Positions 3,592 to 63,125 of a stretch of 64,000 nt of DNA are shown here, piece by piece. Source of the DNA: Clostridia bacterium (GTDB lineage: Bacteria; Bacillota; DTU086); assembly GCA_012523575.1 (NCBI GenBank), contig JAAYIF010000052.1, forward strand, positions 14,635-78,634, written 5' to 3'. The translations under genes and the position numbers were made by a program. The notes below the pieces were generated by a model. It searched no databases, was not told where the DNA came from, and was given only the letters and a program-made list of their open reading frames with translations. Numbering within the stretch: position 1 is the stretch's first letter; every line of letters starts with the position of its first letter.

Positions 3592-3990
3592 TCATTCTTC
3601 AATCTTTATTTCAACTTCTTTTACAGTTCCCCTTTCCCTGTCAATCCTAAACCCCCGAAGCTCCTGGGGCTCCTCCAGGGACAATATAAGATAGACTACC
3701 GGATAAAAAGCCATGTTCACGTCTTTCTGAGAAGGATATGCAGAACCATGGGGGTGGGAGTGGAAGATAGCAACCATTTTCATATTCCTTTTTCTTATAT
3801 CCTTCATCACGGAAATCTGTTCTTTGGGGTCCATGAAGTAGCTATTTGGGCTTTTATCCACATTGGTCATAGGATAAAATATCTCCGCCCTGCCTTCCAC
3901 TCCCCCTATTAGACCACACGCTTCATTGGGTTTTTCCTTATTGGAGAAATCAACCATCCCTTTGTACATCTTTTTCGGTATCACAAACAT
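3592..3990 (-). CDS. JAMM/MPN+ (Mov34) family metalloprotease
   Basis: 132 aa. JAMM motif E...HSHPHGSAYPSQKD (HxHx7Sx2D). Same strand as metX-metY and 62 nt downstream of metX. Confidence 0.8.
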   Translation of the reverse strand: MFVIPKKMYKGMVDFSNKEKPNEACGLIGGVEGRAEIFYPMTNVDKSPNSYFMDPKEQISVMKDIRKRNMKMVAIFHSHPHGSAYPSQKDVNMAFYPVVYLILSLEEPQELRGFRIDRERGTVKEVEIKIEE

Positions 3991-4052: not shown

Positions 4053-5195
4053 TTATACAGCAACGGCTTCAATGGCGAGGAAAAACTGACGCAGTATAGC
4101 CCCCAGCCTCTCAAACTCCACAAGAAAGGCATCGTGGCCGTGGGAAGATTTCAGCTCCACGTACTTTGCCCTCTTGCCCAGAAAAAGGAGATCTTCCACC
4201 AGCTGTCTCAGCAGGTAAGGAGGAAAGAGAATGTCCGAGCTTATACCTATGCAAATTACAATGGATCTAATTCTCCGCAGGGCTTCTTCAAGAGAATCGT
4301 ATCCCCGGGCAATGTCGTGGAGATCCATGGCCTTTGCAAGGTAGATGTAGCAGTTGGCATCAAACCTTTTTACCAGTTTATCCCCCTGATAATGAAGATA
4401 GTTTTCAATCTCGAATCTTCCACTAAAATCAAAGCATTTTTCATCAGGACCGCCGAAATCCCTTCCAAACCTGCGATTCCACAGCTCGTCGCTCTTATAG
4501 GTTATCATTCCAATCATCCTTGCCAGGGCAAGGCCGCGCACCGGGCCCGGCCCCGGGTAGTAATCACCGCCGCACCAGTCCGGGTCCTGCATAATGGCCT
4601 CCCTCTGCACCGCATTAAAGGCTATGCACTGGGGCGTAAGCTGGGCAGACGTCGCTATGGGAATAACACAGTCCATATACCCCGGATAGGTAACCGCCCA
4701 CTCCAGGGCCTGCATGCCTCCCATGGAGCCCCCTATTACCGCAATTAAATGCTTAACACCGAGATGGTCAAGAAGCCTTTTTTGAACCCTGACCATATCC
4801 CTTATGGTAACAGTGGGAAAATCCATGCCATAGGGTTTGCCGGTTCTGGGATTTATAGAGGCCGGGCCCGTGGTGCCATAGCAGCTTCCAAGGACGTTGG
4901 AACAAACTACAAAATATCTGTTTGTATCGATAACCTTTCCGGGTCCTATCAGAGGGTCCCACCAGCCCGGTTCCCTGTCACCGGGGGTATGGTATCCCGC
5001 AGCATGGGCGCTGCCCGTGAGAGCATGGAGAATCAGAACGGCATTATCCCCTCTTTGGTTCAGGGTGCCGTAGGTTTCGTAAGCTACGGTTATTGGACCT
5101 AACTTTTCCCCGCTTTCCAGAACGAATTCGTAAGGGGAAAAGGCAAAGGTATACTTTTGGGTTTTCACCAGCCGGTCCATTAGGTTTACCCCCAT
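4053..5195 (-). CDS. metX: Homoserine O-acetyltransferase
   Basis: 380 aa. Alpha/beta-hydrolase nucleophile motif GGSMGGMQALEW. Typical MetX length and composition. Confidence 0.9.
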   Translation of the reverse strand: MGVNLMDRLVKTQKYTFAFSPYEFVLESGEKLGPITVAYETYGTLNQRGDNAVLILHALTGSAHAAGYHTPGDREPGWWDPLIGPGKVIDTNRYFVVCSNVLGSCYGTTGPASINPRTGKPYGMDFPTVTIRDMVRVQKRLLDHLGVKHLIAVIGGSMGGMQALEWAVTYPGYMDCVIPIATSAQLTPQCIAFNAVQREAIMQDPDWCGGDYYPGPGPVRGLALARMIGMITYKSDELWNRRFGRDFGGPDEKCFDFSGRFEIENYLHYQGDKLVKRFDANCYIYLAKAMDLHDIARGYDSLEEALRRIRSIVICIGISSDILFPPYLLRQLVEDLLFLGKRAKYVELKSSHGHDAFLVEFERLGAILRQFFLAIEAVAV

Positions 5196-5197
5196 TT

Positions 5198-6697
<1,500 letters not shown>

Positions 6698-6784
6698 AAG
6701 CGTGATAATTATTAAGTTTTATAAGGGCAGATTTTTTATTGGGATAAATTATAAATACCCAACTCCCATTTGTCAACAAAAATT

Positions 6785-7609
6785 TTATGGTTCACCGATA
6801 ACTTCGTTAAGGCTGCCTGTGCGGTATCCATCCAGGTCCAGGGCAACGTAATTAAATCCGCAGGCCTTAACCTCCCGGGAAATCCGACGCAGCAGTTCCG
6901 GTTTCAATATCCCGGCCATCTCCTCGGGGGCAATTTCGATTCTGGCCACAGTCCCGTGGTATCTCACCCTCACGTTTTTAAAGCCCAGGTCAGCCAGCCT
7001 CTCTTCCGCCCGGTCAACCATTTCCAGTTTTTCCAGGGATAAGGGTTCCCCATAGGGAATCCTGGTGGCCAGGCAGGGTCTGGCGGGGCGGTTCCAGTTT
7101 TCCAAACCAAGAAACTTGGCTATTTGTCGCACATCATCTTTTTCTATACCGCAGTCAAGCAGAGGACTTCTAACCATTTCAAAGCTCCGGACAGCCTCAA
7201 GGCCGGGGCGGTAATCCCCGGTGTCCGAGCTGTTGGACCCCTCCAGCACATACCTGTAGCCTTCACGGCGGGCCACTTCCGTCAGCAGCTCAAAGGAACG
7301 CCGCTTGCAGTGGTAACAGCGTTGGGGGGTGTTTGCCACAATCTGCGCATCCTGCAGTTCATTGGTCTCAATGATTCGGTGAGGCACTTGCAATTCCCGG
7401 GCAATCCTTTGGGCGTCTTCCAGATCCCCGTGGGGTATGAGGGGAGAACGCAACGTCACGGCCAGAATGTTCCGTTTCCCAAGGCAGTCGGCGGAAACCT
7501 TTAGCACAAGGGAGCTGTCCACCCCGCCGGAAAAGGCAACCATAACCCTTTCCAGCTGTTTAATATAAAGGGAAAGGTTTGCTAGCTTTTCCTCCAGTTG
7601 TTTATCCAT
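6785..7609 (-). CDS. LarE-like PP-loop ATPase / sulfur transferase (TIGR00268 family)
   Basis: 274 aa. PP-loop SGGVDSS. Strong overall similarity to LarE, including the conserved Cys in 'PCLATRIPYG' (equivalent to the LarE catalytic Cys). Additional CxxC (RCYHCK). Confidence 0.8.
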   Translation of the reverse strand: MDKQLEEKLANLSLYIKQLERVMVAFSGGVDSSLVLKVSADCLGKRNILAVTLRSPLIPHGDLEDAQRIARELQVPHRIIETNELQDAQIVANTPQRCYHCKRRSFELLTEVARREGYRYVLEGSNSSDTGDYRPGLEAVRSFEMVRSPLLDCGIEKDDVRQIAKFLGLENWNRPARPCLATRIPYGEPLSLEKLEMVDRAEERLADLGFKNVRVRYHGTVARIEIAPEEMAGILKPELLRRISREVKACGFNYVALDLDGYRTGSLNEVIGEP

Positions 7610-7659
7610 ACAAAAACACCCTTTTCAATTGCCTTTCCTTACGCTTCTCTAAATACTTC

Positions 7660-8589
7660 TCATTCCTCTACCTGAAAAAGTTCGGTGCTCAAATAGCGCT
7701 CCCCGGAATCCGGAAGAATCACAACGATCACTTTACCGCTGCTCTCGGGCCTTTTCGCCACCTGCTGTGCAGCGTAAGCCGCCGCTCCCGCAGAGATCCC
7801 CACCAGTAGACCCAGTGTCCGGGCTAGAAGCCTGCTGGTATTGAAGGCATCCTCAGCGGAAACCGGGATAACCTCATCCACCAGTGACAGATTGAGAACT
7901 TCGGGAACAAAACCGGCGCCAATTCCCTGAATCTTATGTGGGCCCGGCTTGCCTCCTGACAATACCGGAGAGTCAGAGGGTTCCACAGCAATGATCTTCA
8001 AGGTGTCCTTGCGCTTCTTTAGTTCCTCGGCGATACCCGTAATGGTTCCCCCGGTGCCAACACCGCCAACTATGATGTCCACCTTGCCATCCGTATCATC
8101 CCAAATTTCCTGGGCCGTGGTAGCCCGGTGGGCAGCGGGGTTGGACGGGTTTTCGAACTGCTGGGGAATAAAGGAATTGGGTATCTCTTTAGCCAGTTCT
8201 TCAGCCTTTTCCACAGCACCCTTCATCCCTTCAGAGCCCGGCGTTAATACCAGCTCGGCACCGTAAGCCTGGAGGAGTTTGCGGCGCTCTATGCTCATGG
8301 TTTCCGGCATGGTCAATATCAGGCGGTATCCCCTGGCGGCGCAAACAAAGGCCAGGGCAATCCCTGTGTTTCCACTGGTGGGCTCAATGATGACGGTGTC
8401 TTTATTGATAAGCCCCTTTTCCTCAGCATCCCTGATCATGGCATAGCCGATCCTGTCTTTCACACTGCCGGCAGGATTGAAGTACTCCAGTTTCCCGAGG
8501 ACTTCAGCATCCGTCCCCTGGGCTAGAGGTTTTAAACGCAGCAGAGGAGTCCCCCCGATCAGTTCCGTAAGGTTATCATAAACCCGCAT
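7660..8589 (-). CDS. cysK: Cysteine synthase (O-acetylserine sulfhydrylase)
   Basis: 309 aa. PLP-binding motifs [10 protein letters not shown] and [10 protein letters not shown]. Confidence 0.9.
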
Positions 8590-8696
8590 AAATTAACCCT
8601 CCTATTGTTAATAAAGAATGAATAGTTCACCACTATACTTACTTATGTTTTGTTAATTATATTTCCCCGGGATCGGATATGTCAACAACTACAAAA

Positions 8697-19289: not shown

Positions 19290-20462
19290 TCAGCTGCGCA
19301 CCGCTGCCGCCGCCAATGACAGCAGGTAGAAAAGGCACGCCATGCCCATGAGGACAAATACATAGGGTTGAAGAACTTCCCGGCCGGGATTTTTGAAAAC
19401 CAGGAGGTTGAAGCCCTGAAAAAACCACGTCTGGGGGAAAAACTTTGCCGCTTTCTGCACAAAAGCGGGCATAGCTTCCAAGGGCCACGTATATCCCGAA
19501 AGGATAAAGGAAGGCAGAGCAATTACCATCCCGAATCTCACAGCGTCAACGGGATCCCCGCACAGGGCAGAAATCATCGTTCCCAGGCCATGAATGGAAA
19601 CAGCAAAAACAAGGGTAAAGAGCAAAAGCTCCGCTGGGCTGCACCTAAGGGGCATTTTATATATTCCAAAAGCCATGATGTACAGGGGGATTACTGCCAG
19701 CATAAATCCGATAATATGAGCCAGGGATTTGCTGAAAAAGAAGAGGAATTTTGATACCCTCAGGGCTTTTATCTGGAGCCAGCTTCCTTTCCCCATTTCA
19801 CCGGTTATGTTATAGGTGGCGGTTATGGTGCAGCACTGCTGCCAGACGTTTAGGGCCATGGCCAGAACCACAAAAACGGCATAATTCAGGGTAGAATTGA
19901 ACCAGGGTTCGTCCCTGAAAACAACGCCCATAAGGGCATATTGGGCTTCGGTGTAGTGGACTCCCCTGGCAATGAGTTTTTTAACCCCCAGTTCAGCGCT
20001 GTGGGTTCGGGCCACGGTGAGCACCGCAGAAACGGCATTGTTTGCGTAAATCATATTGCTCCCGTCAATAACGCTCAATATCTTTGATCCCTTTCCTCCG
20101 GCAACGTCCCTGCCGAAGTTCTCAGGAATCACCACTCCCACCACGGCTTCCCCCTTTTCGATAACTTCGCACAGTTCTTTGTAGTCTGCGGAGTAAAGCA
20201 CCACGTTCAGATCTTCACAGTTTTCAATGCTCTGCAGCATTTCGAGACTTTGGGGTGTTCTGTCGAGATCCAGAACCACCGTGGGGATTTCCCTCAACAC
20301 CCGGGTGTAGTAAACGGCAAAAAAAAGAAGCAGGGACAGGATTGAAACAATAAACAATATTCTTCTTAAATCAGAATCCCGCCACAGGAGCTGAAATTCC
20401 CTTGCCACCACAGCAAAGCTTTTTTTAAGCACTTTCAGCATTTTCCCCATCCCTTTTTTCAT
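19290..20462 (-). CDS. ABC-2 type transporter permease
   Basis: 390 aa, paralogous to the preceding permease. Confidence 0.75.
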   Translation of the reverse strand: MKKGMGKMLKVLKKSFAVVAREFQLLWRDSDLRRILFIVSILSLLLFFAVYYTRVLREIPTVVLDLDRTPQSLEMLQSIENCEDLNVVLYSADYKELCEVIEKGEAVVGVVIPENFGRDVAGGKGSKILSVIDGSNMIYANNAVSAVLTVARTHSAELGVKKLIARGVHYTEAQYALMGVVFRDEPWFNSTLNYAVFVVLAMALNVWQQCCTITATYNITGEMGKGSWLQIKALRVSKFLFFFSKSLAHIIGFMLAVIPLYIMAFGIYKMPLRCSPAELLLFTLVFAVSIHGLGTMISALCGDPVDAVRFGMVIALPSFILSGYTWPLEAMPAFVQKAAKFFPQTWFFQGFNLLVFKNPGREVLQPYVFVLMGMACLFYLLSLAAAAVRS

Positions 20463-24003: not shown

Positions 24004-24624
24004 TTACTCTTTTTGCTCTCCACCCATTTTAATCATGGAATAATCTTTTAAACAGCAGTAAAGGTGGTACACCACCAGACCCCTTGGAGAATAAATCACT
24101 CCCTGGGGATCATCTGCCGCACCTTTTATATTACAGGGACTGTAGAAGCGGCAGTATTCTTCCTTTATCATCTGGGCGTCCCTGAGCCTGTTTCTTACGG
24201 TTTCTATCTTCTCCATGCACGGGAAAAGAGCTCCTCCCTTGAGCTTCAAGCTGCACCTCACCTCTCCCTCCCCTCCGGAAATGCATTCCACAACCTTATC
24301 CAGAACAACATATCCCAATGCTCCCTGATCTTTGGAAAAGGTTTTCCTCACTTTTAGGGGCACCATTACGTATTCTGCATGGAAGGGAAGGGGAACGCAG
24401 TTTTTCTTTCCCACCACTCACCCATACCGCCGCCTCAGAGAGACGAGGTCCACTGCGAAGATTTCCGCCAGCCCCCTTAAAATGCTTTTGGTTTTTCTCA
24501 CATATGAAAGTTCCCTTCCGTCGTCCAGAAGAATTCGGGTGCAGTTTCCTCCGTTTTCGTCGTAGTATGGATAGAAACCTGCCAAACTGCGCCATATCCC
24601 GCTCAGGTCTACTTTCTTCGGCAT
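24004..24624 (-). CDS. Cys-rich ORF interrupted by an in-frame TGA (candidate selenoprotein, or a disrupted/two-part gene)
   Basis: ORFs 24418..24660 and 24004..24417 are in the same frame, separated only by TGA (plus-strand TCA at 24418-24420), and GTG follows immediately. Likely start MPKKVDL at 24624 (GGGGTG RBS). The downstream half is Cys-rich (C…C…CC). Confidence 0.35.
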
Positions 24625-24683
24625 TGTATCACCCCTTTCCCATTCTATTATAGGGAACATATGTTCGATGTCAAGGGAGCTTT

Positions 24684-25211
24684 TTAGGGATCCACCACAA
24701 AACAGCTCATCCCCATTTTTCTAAGCCTTTGGGCAAACTGCTCCGCATTCTCCCGGGAGCTGAAGGCTCCGCACTGAACCTTCCAGTATTTTTCCTCTCC
24801 GTTAAGGCCTTTTAAAATCCGGGAAAGGGGAAAATGTTTTCCTGGACATAGGGTTTTTGCCCCGGGAACCCCGTTGTGGGGCAGAACATTTTTCTCCGGA
24901 ATATTAAATTCTTTCACGAGCTTTTTAAGAAGGGAAATAAGAGCCGCAATCTGCTCTTCCGTAGGACTTCGCACCTCGAAATTTCCGATTAAAGCGATTC
25001 CTACGGATTTATGGTTCATCCCCGAAGCGCTGCAGTGGGCACCGGGAATGTCAAGGGATCTCCCCTTTACAACGGTGCCGTCCCTCACGATTATATAGTT
25101 GTATCCCACGTCCCTCCATCCTTTACTGAGATGGTATTTACGCACCTGTTTGGCGTTTTTTTCCTCCGCTCCCGTATGATGCAGTATAATGTAACTTCTA
25201 GGATATTGCAC
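24684..25211 (-). CDS. N-acetylmuramoyl-L-alanine amidase (amidase_2/PGRP) with C-terminal SPOR domain (CwlC-like)
   Basis: 175 aa, GTG start. Amidase_2 core (ILHHTG…GYNYII…HNGVPGAKTLCPG) followed by a SPOR-like tail. Confidence 0.8.
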   Translation of the reverse strand: MQYPRSYIILHHTGAEEKNAKQVRKYHLSKGWRDVGYNYIIVRDGTVVKGRSLDIPGAHCSASGMNHKSVGIALIGNFEVRSPTEEQIAALISLLKKLVKEFNIPEKNVLPHNGVPGAKTLCPGKHFPLSRILKGLNGEEKYWKVQCGAFSSRENAEQFAQRLRKMGMSCFVVDP

Positions 25212-25348
25212 GGCTTACCACCTCCCCCAGCCTTGCTATGGCTAATGTAAGCTCATCAAGTTTTTTTTCCACCCGCACCAGAAGATAAATTGCTACCACC
25301 ATGGGAAATCCGTAGTTTCCCACCTGGAGCCATAAGTTTTCCATCACC
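25199..25348 (-). CDS. YvrJ-family small protein (49 aa)
   Basis: MENLWLQVGNYGFPMVVAIYLLVRVEKKLDELTLAIARLGGGGKPCNIL. Matches the YvrJ family pattern (M..LW…GFP..V..YLL.R.E.KLD.L). Not in the ORF track (<60 aa). Confidence 0.6.
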
Positions 25349-25414
25349 GGTACCCCCTTGATATTTATATATTATGAAGGGCGGCCTGCCTTTAGCGCCT
25401 GCCGCCCCATAGCT

Positions 25415-25642
25415 TTAAAAAACGTCAAATTCATGAACTTCAGTAGTTACCAGCTGGGCCGAAACCACGCCCACCAGGTTGCCGTCGCTGGTTTCAAAAA
25501 TGTTTTTGGATATGATGGTATCCATGGCAGACTGCACTTCCGCATCAGTTAAATTACTCCTGGGATTGTCAATGGAAATGGTTCTCCTTCTTCCCCCGGC
25601 GGTTCTGAAGGTGAGCTGCAGCCTTGCAGCCACTGTTATCAC
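25415..25642 (-). CDS. DUF2922-like small protein
   Basis: 75 aa, …LTFRTAGGRRRTISIDNPRSNLTDAEVQSAMDTIISKNIF… Usual partner of DUF1659 in Firmicutes. Confidence 0.55.
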   Translation of the reverse strand: MITVAARLQLTFRTAGGRRRTISIDNPRSNLTDAEVQSAMDTIISKNIFETSDGNLVGVVSAQLVTTEVHEFDVF

Positions 25643-25686
25643 CTCCCTTTAAACATGGTTTTTCTTTTCCTTAAAGTTTACTCTAC

Positions 25687-26016
25687 TTACTCCCAGGTTT
25701 CGGTTAGCTCAATATTGTTCACCCTTAAAACTTCCACCAGGGGAAGTTCCTGCAGGTCCGCCAGTACCATAGCCACATCGTACACATCCTGATCCGATGC
25801 CTCAGGTTTTACCCCTGAGTAAGATCTGGTGCGGTAAACAGGGTTTCCTATTTCATCGGTACCCACCTGCAGGATGAGGCATAGCCTTGAGCCCTGGGGC
25901 ACTGCATTAACAGCCATCTTTTTCACCTCCTTCAACCTTGCTGAGAACATTTTAAAATCCACCTTAAAAAAACCAAAAAGACGACCCATACGGAGGTCGT
26001 CCGGAAACAGCTGCAC
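25687..26016 (-). CDS. DUF1659-like small protein
   Basis: 109 aa. Paired upstream of the DUF2922 gene. Confidence 0.5.
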   Translation of the reverse strand: MQLFPDDLRMGRLFGFFKVDFKMFSARLKEVKKMAVNAVPQGSRLCLILQVGTDEIGNPVYRTRSYSGVKPEASDQDVYDVAMVLADLQELPLVEVLRVNNIELTETWE

Positions 26017-26254: not shown

Positions 26255-27244
26255 ATGTTTGGCCATAGAACGTCAAGCACAATACCCAATGTAAAGGTTG
26301 TGGGAATAGGTAGCGGGGGAAATCTGGTAATCAATCAAATGATCTCCCAGGGCATTAAGGGCCCAGATTATATTAACCTGGATACAAATCCCCATTTCTT
26401 AAGCCTGTGCAGAGCCCAGCAAAAGCTTAAAATGTTCCATGGCGGCCTCTCCCCAACGGAAATAAGTCAAATAATGGAAGAAACAGCCAGGGAAAATAAA
26501 GAGCACTTTTCAAAAATGTTTAAGGGGGCTGACGTGGTAATAATTGTGGCAGCTCTGGGGGGAAATGTGGGAAGTTCCATAGCTCCCATAGTGGCGGAGG
26601 CGGCCATGGAAGTAGATTCTGTAACCATAGCGGCTGTCACAAAACCCCTTACCTTTGGGCTTAAGGATAGGCTTATCATGGCTGAAGAGAGAGTGGCCCA
26701 GCTTAAGGAAAGGGTGCACACCCTAATGGTTGTGCAAAACGACGTGCTTCAAGAAAAGTTGGGCAAAACTGCGGTACCTGCGGATATATTCCGCTCGGGG
26801 GATGAAATGCTCATCAGGGGTATTCAATCTATTATCCTAACGCTGATCTTTGAAGAGCACCGGAGGAGAAAAAATGCCGCAGCCATAGGGGAAATTAAAC
26901 ACTTTACCCGAAACTACAGCCCCGCTGAATTAAAAAACTTTCTCAAACAAGGCGGCACCGCAGTTATAGGAACGGGCAGCGCTTCAGGTAAAAGAAAAAC
27001 CCTGGAAGCAGCTAAAACCGCTCTTTCCCACTGTTTAACGGAACAACAGAACAGAAATGCGGAGTACGTCATACTAAACGTTACCAGGGGAAAGGAATCC
27101 CACCTTTTGGACGTAAACACCCTGCTAAAAATGGCTAGGAGGGCCTTCAGCAAAGAAGTGAAAATATTCTTTACGGATACGATTTTGGACAAAGATATGG
27201 GGGGAGAAGTAAACGTCACAGCCATTGCAGGCAAAAGGGACTAA
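26255..27244 (+). CDS. Divergent FtsZ/tubulin-like protein (degenerate GTP-binding motifs)
   Basis: 329 aa. VKVVGIGSGGNLVINQM aligns to FtsZ IKVIGVGGGGNNAVNRM. ALGGNVGSSIAPIVA aligns to GGGTGTGAAPVIA with G→N and T→V. VVQNDVLQE aligns to IPNDRLLE. No recognisable T7 'NVDFAD' loop and no C-terminal tail. Confidence 0.7.
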   Translation: MFGHRTSSTIPNVKVVGIGSGGNLVINQMISQGIKGPDYINLDTNPHFLSLCRAQQKLKMFHGGLSPTEISQIMEETARENKEHFSKMFKGADVVIIVAALGGNVGSSIAPIVAEAAMEVDSVTIAAVTKPLTFGLKDRLIMAEERVAQLKERVHTLMVVQNDVLQEKLGKTAVPADIFRSGDEMLIRGIQSIILTLIFEEHRRRKNAAAIGEIKHFTRNYSPAELKNFLKQGGTAVIGTGSASGKRKTLEAAKTALSHCLTEQQNRNAEYVILNVTRGKESHLLDVNTLLKMARRAFSKEVKIFFTDTILDKDMGGEVNVTAIAGKRD

Positions 27245-27446: not shown

Positions 27447-27884
27447 ATGCTGGAACTTGAAGTCAAAATGGTCTGCCTGGACGAAAACAATCAGCATGTG
27501 GTCGTGCTCACGGATAAGGAACAGAAAATTGCCTTTCCCATATGGATCGGACTCTTTGAAGCCCAAGCCATAGCCTTAAGGCTGAAAAATGAAAAATTTC
27601 CCCGTCCCCTGACCCACGATCTGTTTATCTCGTGGTGCAAGGCGACAAACAGCACCATTGATAAGGTAGTTATTACCGACATCACTCCGGACAGCACATA
27701 TGTCGCCCAGATCCACCTGATTCACCAAAATCAGGAAAAGATTATCGATTCCAGACCCAGCGACGCCATTGCCCTTGCTTTGAGAAGCAACGCTAAAATA
27801 TATATGACCACTAAGCTCATTGAGTTTACCCATAACTTTGAAGACCTTTTTCCCGAAGGGCTTGAGCGCGGAGAAACGCACTAG
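27447..27884 (+). CDS. Bifunctional nuclease (BFN/DUF151) family protein
   Basis: 145 aa. Conserved RPLTHDL motif. Confidence 0.75.
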   Translation: MLELEVKMVCLDENNQHVVVLTDKEQKIAFPIWIGLFEAQAIALRLKNEKFPRPLTHDLFISWCKATNSTIDKVVITDITPDSTYVAQIHLIHQNQEKIIDSRPSDAIALALRSNAKIYMTTKLIEFTHNFEDLFPEGLERGETH

Positions 27885-28840: not shown

Positions 28841-28867
28841 TCTCTGCTGCAGTTTTCTCTACTTGCG

Positions 28868-29035
28868 AACTCACGCCGGACGTCTCTAAGCAAAGCGTAA
28901 TGGGCAAAACCGGGCCGCCCCAAATTCGGCGTCCATGCCTCAGGTTGGGGGCTGGCGCGAACGTCCATGCTCGCGCCCCCCGGTTTTGCCTTACGCTTTG
29001 CCAGAGCTGTTAGCCGGCGTTCGTTAAGTCGTTTC
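28868..29035. other. GC-rich ~170-nt long imperfect inverted repeat (candidate structured ncRNA or MITE-like element)
   Basis: Arms …ACGCCGG…GCAAAGCGTAATGGGCAAAACCGGG… and …CCCGGTTTTGCCTTACGCTTTGC…CCGGCGT… pair over ~55 nt around a ~50-nt core that carries its own hairpin GGCGCGA-ACGTCCATGC-TCGCGCC. GC-rich in an AT-moderate intergenic region. The overlapping ORFs are judged spurious. Confidence 0.4.
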
Positions 29036-51890: not shown

Positions 51891-52071
51891 ATTAAACCCT
51901 CCATAAAAATTAAGCCTTCCGGACCAAAGGGTACGGAAGGCATAGCATCGACAGACCGTCTAACCTCCGTCTCGGTCCTCACAGGATCCAAGCGGAAAAA
52001 AATAGGATATTTAAATGTTAACACAGGAACGGTCCCCTGTCCATAAAAGCTCCTTTATATTTCACTCACTT

Positions 52072-62879: not shown

Positions 62880-62954
62880 TGGTGACCCGTAGGGGATTCG
62901 AACCCCTGTTACCGGCGTGAAAGGCCGGTGTCTTAACCACTTGACCAACGGGCC
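62880..62954 (-). tRNA. tRNA-Glu (UUC)
   Basis: Minus strand: GGCCCGTTGGTCAAGTGGTTAAGACACCGGCCTTTCACGCCGGTAACAGGGGTTCGAATCCCCTACGGGTCACCA. Anticodon loop CTTTCAC. CCA encoded. Confidence 0.9.
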
Positions 62955-62966
62955 GGAAACAAAACT

Positions 62967-63043
62967 TGGTAGCGGTGGTAGGACTCGAACCTACGACACT
63001 ACGGGTATGAACCGTATGCTCTAACCACCTGAGCTACACCGCC
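62967..63043 (-). tRNA. tRNA-Met (CAU, elongator type)
   Basis: Minus strand: GGCGGTGTAGCTCAGGTGGTTAGAGCATACGGTTCATACCCGTAG…CCACCGCTACCA. Close to B. subtilis elongator tRNA-Met. Could alternatively be Ile2 (lysidine), but the acceptor and anticodon stems match Met. Confidence 0.8.
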
Positions 63044-63050
63044 ACTTAAT

Positions 63051-63125
<75 letters not shown>

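What the first reader, a model, noticed from the sequence alone, without database searches (positions are those of the whole stretch)
24004..24660. In-frame TGA joins two ORFs into a ~207-aa Cys-rich protein: candidate selenoprotein or disrupted gene
ORFs 24418..24660 and 24004..24417 are in the same frame, separated only by TGA, and GTG follows immediately with no room for an RBS. The best upstream start is MPKKVDL (GGGGTG RBS). Selenoproteins are common in Clostridia. A weak hairpin (GGGAA…UUCCC) lies 6-35 nt downstream of the UGA, but I cannot call a convincing SECIS. Alternatives are a nonsense-mutated pseudogene or two translationally coupled genes. The locus sits in a sporulation-type cluster with the cwlC-like amidase, yvrJ, DUF2922 and DUF1659.
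Basis: partly seen in the sequence, partly recalled or inferred. Interest (0 to 1): 0.55.

Follow-up and report, generated by a model that had tools for sequence, protein, structure and literature searches.

The report
ComK-like gene broken by stop codon
The in-frame TGA is real, but it is an ordinary premature stop at a spot where close relatives have serine, inside a divergent ComK-type regulator gene. It is a broken (or at best split) gene in one metagenome-assembled genome, not a selenoprotein.

Summary
On the minus strand a 207-codon frame runs from ATG 24624 to TAA 24004, and its only interruption is TGA at 24420..24418, followed directly by GTG.

The selenoprotein reading fails:
- The two closest relatives (88% and 77% identical, seen on 10 contigs read here, some of them copies of one assembly) are single uninterrupted ORFs with Ser (AGC) at that codon.
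- In a 60-member family alignment the position is variable (R/K/S/E/Q...) and never Cys.
- The RNA after the UGA folds no better than shuffled sequence, and no SECIS or tRNA-Sec was found in the window.
- TGA closes 14 of 47 long ORFs in the window, so it is a normal stop here.

The protein is a divergent ComK-family (PF06338) regulator. The stop falls inside its single compact domain. Both halves match the family profile with exactly one position missing, and there is no other lesion. The stop is therefore recent, tolerated, or an assembly or strain-variant artefact; this allele occurs in only one MAG.

One by-product is of moderate interest. The gene has a perfect sigma-A promoter with a LexA (SOS) box in the spacer, and this arrangement is kept in orthologues of only 37-39% identity.

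The parts
24647..24674 (-). Sigma-A-type promoter: TTGACA (24674..24669), 16-nt spacer, TATAAT (24652..24647)
   Evidence: 12 of 12 consensus matches. The sequence is invariant in all 7 related contigs aligned. Orthologues L011 and L014 have the same architecture.
24654..24667 (-). Predicted LexA (SOS) operator CGAACATATGTTCC in the promoter spacer
   Evidence: Exact match to the Firmicute GAAC-N4-GTTC operator (consensus as cited in PMC4234289). It is kept in the same place in orthologues of 37-39% identity. LexA binding was not tested.
24629..24638 (-). Shine-Dalgarno sequence AAAGGGGTGA, ending 4 nt before the ATG
   Evidence: Read directly from the sequence; conserved in relatives.
24421..24624 (-). 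N-terminal 68 codons of the ComK-like gene (NCBI GX088_07390, NLO90130.1)
   Evidence: Translation. Family HMM positions 3-67, E 8.6e-26. dN/dS 0.06 against L005. The exact 68-aa protein is on record.
24418..24420 (-). Premature TGA stop, replacing AGC (Ser69) of the relatives
   Evidence: DNA alignment and protein alignment. Pattern scans of the genome and metagenome collections found only AGCATA alleles.
24412..24417 (-). GTG GTG directly after the stop: possible restart codons. The first is the start annotated for GX088_07385. The second is the conserved Val71 codon, 6 nt after a GG of GGGTGA.
   Evidence: Sequence. P0003 starts here. Whether a restart happens is inference only.
24007..24417 (-). 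C-terminal 137 codons of the ComK-like gene (NCBI GX088_07385, NLO90129.1)
   Evidence: Family HMM positions 69-189, E 8.5e-38. dN/dS 0.155 against L005.
24004..24006 (-). Natural TAA stop of the gene
   Evidence: it aligns with the stop of P0001.

Best explanation
Window 24624..24004 (minus strand) is one gene for a divergent ComK-family transcription regulator of about 206 aa. It has one compact domain (residues 1-160) and a disordered tail. In this genome, a Clostridia MAG (locus tags GX088_07385/07390), codon 69 has changed from AGC (Ser) to TGA. TGA is an ordinary stop in this organism. Translation therefore ends after 68 residues, in the middle of the domain, and the gene is most likely a recently inactivated pseudogene. 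The two-base path can pass through AGA (Arg) or TGC (Cys) at a position the family tolerates as almost anything. The next codon also changed, ATA to GTG (Ile to Val).

Shown: the gene is single and intact in relatives, has Ser at the site, belongs to the ComK family, and the stop lies inside the domain.

Inferred: loss of function, and recency. Recency is inferred because both halves still look selected and no second lesion exists.

When intact, the gene is predicted to be transcribed from a consensus sigma-A promoter that LexA represses, so it would be induced by DNA damage.
For: 1. Single intact orthologues. P0001 (206 aa, 88% identical), P0177 (same protein called from an upstream ATG) and P0002 (211 aa, 77%) lie in the same gene order on 10 contigs read, some of them copies of one assembly. 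The codon is AGC in all.
2. Family size. 515 representatives of about 200 aa span the site in one chain. The column is R/K/S/E/Q/D/N/A with 0 Cys in 60 sequences.
3. Each half matches consecutive profile positions, 3-67 and 69-189.
4. ComK link. 16 of 60 relatives hit Pfam ComK, and three were seen above the gathering score (31.0, 29.2 and 23.6 against 22.3), covering 11-147 of 152 profile positions. One relative is named 'ComK protein' by UniRef.
5. AF2 model: pLDDT 87. Residue 69 sits at the end of helix 60-71 inside the 1-160 domain.
6. TGA closes 14 of 47 long ORFs in the window.
7. Selection. dN/dS is 0.06 (N half) and 0.155 (C half) against L005, close to intact-versus-intact values of 0.014 and 0.12. 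The eight invariant or nearly invariant non-Met family residues are all intact in the window.
8. The window branch shows more non-synonymous change than the L005 branch (17 non-synonymous: 19 synonymous against 6: 19), but not significantly so (Fisher p = 0.11).
Against: - The TGA allele is known from a single MAG contig, and read-level support could not be checked.
- dN/dS stays low on both sides and there is no second lesion. That pattern is also what a still-functional gene would show.
- A GTG follows the stop directly, preceded by a weak SD-like GGGTGA, so the C-terminal part might still be made.
- Loss of function was not demonstrated.
Confidence: 0.55

Rival explanations
1. Assembly-consensus error or strain variant. 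The organism's dominant genotype has an intact gene, and the TGA reflects a minority allele or a mis-called consensus in the MAG.
For: The allele is found in only one contig of one MAG. Scans of the genome and metagenome collections returned only AGCATA alleles. Otherwise the gene looks perfectly conserved.
Against: Turning AGCATA into TGAGTG takes four substitutions in six bases with no indel. That is not a typical sequencing or assembly error. Mismatch clusters of this density occur about six times in the 2.7 kb of well-aligned flanking synteny with L005, so it looks like ordinary divergence. The neighbouring genes are intact.
Confidence: 0.2
2. The gene is still functional despite the stop. 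Either ribosomes terminate at UGA and restart at the adjacent GUG, giving 68-aa and 137-aa pieces that reassemble, or low-level UGA read-through (near-cognate tRNA-Trp, as reported for Bacillus subtilis; from my own knowledge) yields some full-length protein from a very strong promoter.
For: The stop and GTG are adjacent (TGAGTG). GGGTGA resembles the gene's own SD (GGGGTGA), and its GG lies 6 nt before the second GTG. Both halves are under purifying selection with no further lesions. Position 69 tolerates many residues. The promoter matches the consensus at 12 of 12 positions.
Against: None of the 150 family representatives listed begins near position 70, and all close relatives are single chains. 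The cut falls within a helix of a single compact domain. The SD-like match is weak. Low dN/dS is equally expected for a very recent mutation.
Confidence: 0.2
3. UGA encodes selenocysteine, making a 206-aa selenoprotein.
For: There is an in-frame UGA in an otherwise intact, conserved frame. One two-step path from AGC to TGA passes through TGC (Cys). Selenoproteins are common in Clostridia (general knowledge).
Against: Relatives have Ser at this position, and the family never has Cys there. The protein is a ComK-type DNA-binding regulator, not a redox enzyme. The RNA downstream folds no better than shuffles (z +0.66). The small stem is weakened without compensation in the L001 lineage. Rfam gives no SECIS or any credible match. 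No tRNA-Sec lies in the window.
Confidence: 0.02

Closest known systems
ComK competence transcription factor family (Pfam PF06338; type member Bacillus subtilis ComK)
   Same: Similar size (about 200 aa) and one domain. Relatives of the window protein match nearly the whole ComK profile (11-147 of 152) above Pfam's cut-off. One relative, P0158, lies beside PilX_N-type pilin genes, which fits a competence link.
   Different: The window protein and its closest relatives do not hit the ComK model themselves, even at E <= 1. The link is transitive, through profile hits with E <= 1e-18. This subfamily sits after DUF1659-DUF2922-YvrJ and carries a LexA box, neither of which I know for B. subtilis comK. 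No function has been tested. No solved structure matched the model: Foldseek against PDB gave no hit below E 1e-3.
Nonsense-mutated pseudogene, or a split gene annotated as two ORFs
   Same: A single premature stop relative to intact orthologues in conserved gene order. NCBI annotates two adjacent 'hypothetical proteins' of 68 and 137 aa.
   Different: There are no accompanying lesions and no significant relaxation of selection. It is therefore very young, tolerated, or an artefact.
Bacterial selenoprotein genes (UGA plus a SECIS hairpin immediately downstream, decoded by SelB and tRNA-Sec)
   Same: Only the in-frame UGA.
   Different: No Cys/Sec homologues, no SECIS-like structure, and not a redox protein family.
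LexA-repressed SOS genes of Firmicutes (Cheo box, GAAC-N4-GTTC)
   Same: A perfect palindrome GAACATATGTTC overlaps the core promoter, the usual position for repression. It is conserved in diverged orthologues (consensus from PMC4234289).
   Different: A ComK-like regulator is not, to my knowledge, a described SOS regulon member. A literature search for ComK with LexA, SOS box and Clostridia listed no paper whose title or abstract reports this. Binding is untested.

Membership tests
Bacterial selenoprotein | In-frame UGA within a conserved reading frame | tested here: met
   TGA at 24420..24418 lies between two halves that match consecutive family profile positions.
Bacterial selenoprotein | Homologues carry Cys or Sec at the aligned position | tested here: not met
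   Ser (AGC) in all close relatives. 0 Cys in 60 family members; the column is R/K/S/E/Q/D/N/A.
Bacterial selenoprotein | SECIS stem-loop immediately downstream of the UGA | tested here: not met
   MFE -14.4 against a shuffle mean of -16.45 kcal/mol, z +0.66. No credible Rfam match. The 5-bp GGGAA/UUCCC stem loses a pair without compensation in L001. No dedicated bSECISearch tool was available.
Bacterial selenoprotein | selA, selB, selC (tRNA-Sec) and selD present in the genome | not testable with these tools
   Only 64 kb of the genome is held. No tRNA-Sec lies in the window.
ComK family (PF06338) | Direct significant match of the protein to the Pfam ComK model | tested here: not met
   No Pfam hit at E <= 1 for either half or for the joined protein. 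No NCBIfam hit at E <= 10.
ComK family (PF06338) | Homology to bona fide ComK-model members through intermediate sequences | tested here: met
   The P0001/P0002 profile finds P0052 (E 6.6e-19) and P0019 (E 6.9e-24). These score 29.2 and 23.6 bits on ComK against a cut-off of 22.3. P0158, found with the 60-member family profile (E 1.4e-47), scores 31.0 bits. 16 of 60 members hit ComK at E <= 0.1, best 5.1e-9.
ComK family (PF06338) | Binds K-boxes and activates competence genes | not testable with these tools
   Needs experiment.
Pseudogene by nonsense mutation | Premature stop relative to intact orthologues in conserved gene order | tested here: met
Pseudogene by nonsense mutation | Relaxed selection or further lesions | tested here: inconclusive
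   dN/dS 0.06 and 0.155. Window branch 17 non-synonymous: 19 synonymous against 6: 19 on the L005 branch, p = 0.11. No other stop or frameshift.
Translationally coupled gene pair | Stop and start codons adjacent or overlapping | tested here: met
   TGAGTG.
Translationally coupled gene pair | The two-gene arrangement is conserved in relatives | tested here: not met
   All relatives are single ORFs, and no listed family representative starts near position 70.
LexA (SOS) regulon, Firmicute type | GAAC-N4-GTTC/T operator overlapping the promoter | tested here: met
   CGAACATATGTTCC lies in the spacer of a 12/12 promoter. The consensus is as cited in PMC4234289.
LexA (SOS) regulon, Firmicute type | Operator conserved in orthologues | tested here: met
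   Invariant in 7 close contigs. L011 has CGAACACATGTTTG and L014 has AAACATATGTTC, in the same spacer position, at 37-39% protein identity. The motif background is 0.17 per kb.
LexA (SOS) regulon, Firmicute type | LexA binding and induction by DNA damage | not testable with these tools
   Needs EMSA or ChIP, and expression data.

The most novel reading that the evidence does not exclude
The subfamily this gene belongs to is a previously undescribed SOS-controlled branch of ComK-like regulators in Clostridia/Bacillota. Its members sit directly after a DUF1659-DUF2922-YvrJ cluster and carry a LexA operator inside a near-consensus sigma-A promoter. That would link DNA damage directly to a ComK-type transcription programme. 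In this particular genome the regulator may persist as a split or read-through form rather than being dead.
Probability: 0.35. Interest if true: 0.5.

Novelty: new member of a known kind. Interest (0 to 1): 0.2.

Why it matters
For the question asked, it matters mainly as a correction. This is not a new selenoprotein. The two 'hypothetical proteins' annotated in the MAG (NLO90130.1 and NLO90129.1) are halves of one ComK-like gene and should be annotated as a disrupted gene.

The by-product is of modest interest. A family of about 500 representative sequences, mostly labelled 'hypothetical', can be tied to ComK. One branch of it has a conserved LexA operator. This suggests a testable link between the SOS response and a ComK-type regulator in anaerobic Firmicutes, where ComK-like proteins are, as far as I know, little studied.

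Tried and rejected
- Pfam and NCBIfam on the halves and the joined protein gave nothing.
- The first AF2 run, with a 2-sequence alignment, was useless (pLDDT 35). It was redone with 60 sequences.
- Foldseek against PDB gave no hit below E 1e-3 (best: Rtt106 PH domains, TM 0.23), so there is no structural assignment. The afdb50 library was not available.
- An HMM search of PDB sequences gave only noise.
- An exact look-up of P0003 in the contig index found no record.
- Pattern scans of the genome and metagenome collections, meant to find a second TGA allele, returned only intact AGCATA alleles.
- A recoded genetic code (TGA as sense) is rejected, because TGA closes 14 of 47 long ORFs.
- The four changes in six bases were considered as a sign of error or of a templated event. 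Clusters of that density occur several times in the flanking synteny, so this was not pursued.
- No second ComK-like gene lies in the window.
- The sel genes could not be looked for in the rest of the genome.

Full report
**1. The observation**

On the minus strand, one reading frame opens at ATG 24624 (MPKKVDL...). An AAAGGGGTGA ribosome-binding site ends 4 nt upstream of it. The frame runs 68 codons to TGA (24420..24418), continues directly with GTG GTG, and ends 137 codons later at TAA (24006..24004).

Both halves are real coding sequence. Against an HMM of the protein family found below, the N half matches profile positions 3-67 (E 8.6e-26) and the C half positions 69-189 (E 8.5e-38). Exactly one position, the stop, is missing.

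**2. What the relatives show**

A search of 5.8 billion proteins gave two full-length relatives. P0001 is 206 aa and 88% identical. P0002 is 211 aa, 77% identical, and comes from Peptococcaceae / 'Clostridia bacterium 41_269' MAGs. The search also returned P0003, the 137-aa C-terminal half as annotated by NCBI in MAG GX088.

An exact look-up shows that NCBI annotates both halves as neighbouring genes on one 80,725-nt contig: GX088_07390 (68 aa) and GX088_07385 (137 aa). This contig is evidently the source of the window.

The relatives lie in the same gene order on 10 contigs read here, some of them copies of one assembly, and each is a single ORF. At the TGA position they have Ser. In DNA, the relatives read GGG AGC ATA GTG where the window reads GGG TGA GTG GTG.

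Pattern scans of the genome-representative and metagenome collections, with the six variable bases left open, returned only AGCATA alleles. The TGA allele is therefore known from one assembly only.

**3. What the protein is**

An exhaustive HMMER search with the P0001/P0002 profile found 515 representative proteins (201 at E <= 1e-10). Most of those listed are 160-240 aa, and most match across the TGA position in one stretch.

In a 60-member alignment the conserved residues are P19, Y21, D59, P78, R93, G101, G104 and Y105. All are intact in the window. Sixteen of the 60 members hit Pfam ComK (PF06338), the best at 5.1e-9. Three were seen above the curated cut-off (31.0, 29.2 and 23.6 bits against 22.3), covering 11-147 of 152 model positions. 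UniRef names one relative 'ComK protein'.

The window protein itself does not reach the ComK model, so its membership is transitive. It belongs to a divergent ComK-like branch.

With the 60-sequence alignment, AlphaFold gives a confident model (pLDDT 87). Residues 1-160 form one compact alpha/beta domain and the tail (161-206) is disordered. Residue 69 lies at the C-terminal end of helix 60-71, inside the domain. No solved structure resembles the model.

**4. Selenocysteine test**

- Column 69 in the family reads R 11, K 10, S 8, E 5, Q 4 and so on, with no Cys. None of the protein's nine Cys is conserved.
- The 76 nt from the UGA onwards fold at -14.4 kcal/mol, against -16.45 +/- 3.09 for shuffles (z +0.66).
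- The small GGGAA/UUCCC stem encodes the conserved GKKNC(V/I)P. It loses a pair without compensation in the P0002 lineage.
- Rfam finds nothing credible there.
- The window has no tRNA-Sec.
- TGA closes 14 of 47 long ORFs in the window, so the code is standard.

The sel genes in the rest of the genome could not be examined.

**5. Dead, split or artefact?**

dN/dS between the window and L005 is 0.06 (N half) and 0.155 (C half). Intact-versus-intact comparisons give 0.014 and 0.12.

With P0002 as outgroup, the window branch carries 19 synonymous and 17 non-synonymous changes, four of the latter in codons 69-70. The P0001 branch carries 19 and 6. The difference is not significant (Fisher p = 0.11, or 0.27 after correcting codons 69-70). 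There is no other stop or frameshift.

The stop is therefore young, tolerated, or not real. Four changes in six bases look odd. But mismatch clusters of that density occur about six times in the 2.7 kb of well-aligned synteny, and the site is a variable one, so ordinary divergence suffices. The path AGC to TGA passes through AGA or TGC.

A restart is conceivable. The stop is followed directly by GTG GTG, and GGGTGA resembles the gene's own SD. However, no family member is split there, and the cut is inside a helix of a single domain.

My weights are: recent inactivating mutation 0.55, MAG consensus or strain artefact 0.2, still functional by restart or read-through 0.2, Sec 0.02.

**6. How the intact gene probably works (partly inferred)**

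The promoter is TTGACA-16 nt-TATAAT, a 12 of 12 match. Its spacer holds CGAACATATGTTCC. This is a perfect match to the Firmicute LexA operator GAAC-N4-GTTC (B. subtilis; clostridia also use GTTT; PMC4234289).

The whole promoter is invariant in the seven close contigs. Two orthologues of only 37-39% protein identity have the same design: L011 (TTGACT-ACGAACACATGTTTGGTT-TAAAAT) and L014 (TTGACA-CAAACATATGTTCCCTA-TATAAT). Both also keep DUF1659-DUF2922-YvrJ directly upstream. More distant members (27-31% identity; L012, L013, L015) have neither feature. The motif background is 0.17 per kb.

I therefore infer that this branch of ComK-like regulators is repressed by LexA and induced by DNA damage. 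Binding and induction are untested. A literature search listed no paper whose title or abstract describes such a case.

**7. Verdict**

The locus is a ComK-like regulator gene carrying a plain premature stop in one MAG. That is ordinary for the question asked. The conserved SOS-type promoter is a modestly interesting side result.

Noticed in passing
window 24647..24674 (-); L011 about 4942..4971; L014 about 3957..3985: A consensus sigma-A promoter with a LexA-box palindrome (CGAACATATGTTCC) in its spacer lies upstream of the ComK-like gene. The same design appears in orthologues of 37-39% identity and is absent from relatives of 27-31% identity. This suggests an SOS-controlled ComK-like subfamily.
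   Followed up: partly
window 25198..26016 (-); L001 4655..5420; L011 4085..4916; L014 2850..3890: The DUF1659-DUF2922-YvrJ trio is kept directly upstream of the ComK-like gene across distant orthologues. The Amidase_2/SPOR gene is inserted between them only in the window's clade. The function of the trio is unknown.
   Followed up: partly
L011 2734..3586; L014 1721..2568; L012 1545..2458: A Polbeta/HepT (MNT-HEPN type) toxin-antitoxin pair lies shortly upstream of the cluster, or of the ComK-like gene, in three different genomes. This may be coincidence.
   Followed up: no
window 26255..27244 (+) and 27447..27884 (+): A short FtsZ-like paralogue (329 aa, Tubulin + FtsZ_C) is transcribed divergently from the cluster and is followed by a BFN (bifunctional nuclease) domain protein. 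Both are conserved in the relatives' loci.
   Followed up: no
window 28867..29026 (-): TwoAYGGAY RNA motif (Rfam RF01731, 67.8 bits against a gathering score of 43). This is an orphan structured RNA of unknown function.
   Followed up: no
window 6586..6697 (-); 51963..52043 (-); 62880..63125 (-): A SAM riboswitch (97 bits), a pan motif (40.6 bits), and a tRNA-Glu/Met/Met cluster.
   Followed up: no
L015 4001..4630 and 5274..8630: A family member that passes the Pfam ComK cut-off (P0158) lies beside several PilX_N-type pilin-like genes. This fits a competence or pseudopilus link for the wider family.
   Followed up: no
window 19899..19911: A second exact CGAAC-N4-GTTC palindrome (CGAACCCTGGTTC) is present in the window. 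Its count is within chance expectation (6 found against 8.1 expected at up to 1 mismatch), so it is probably not an operator.
   Followed up: no
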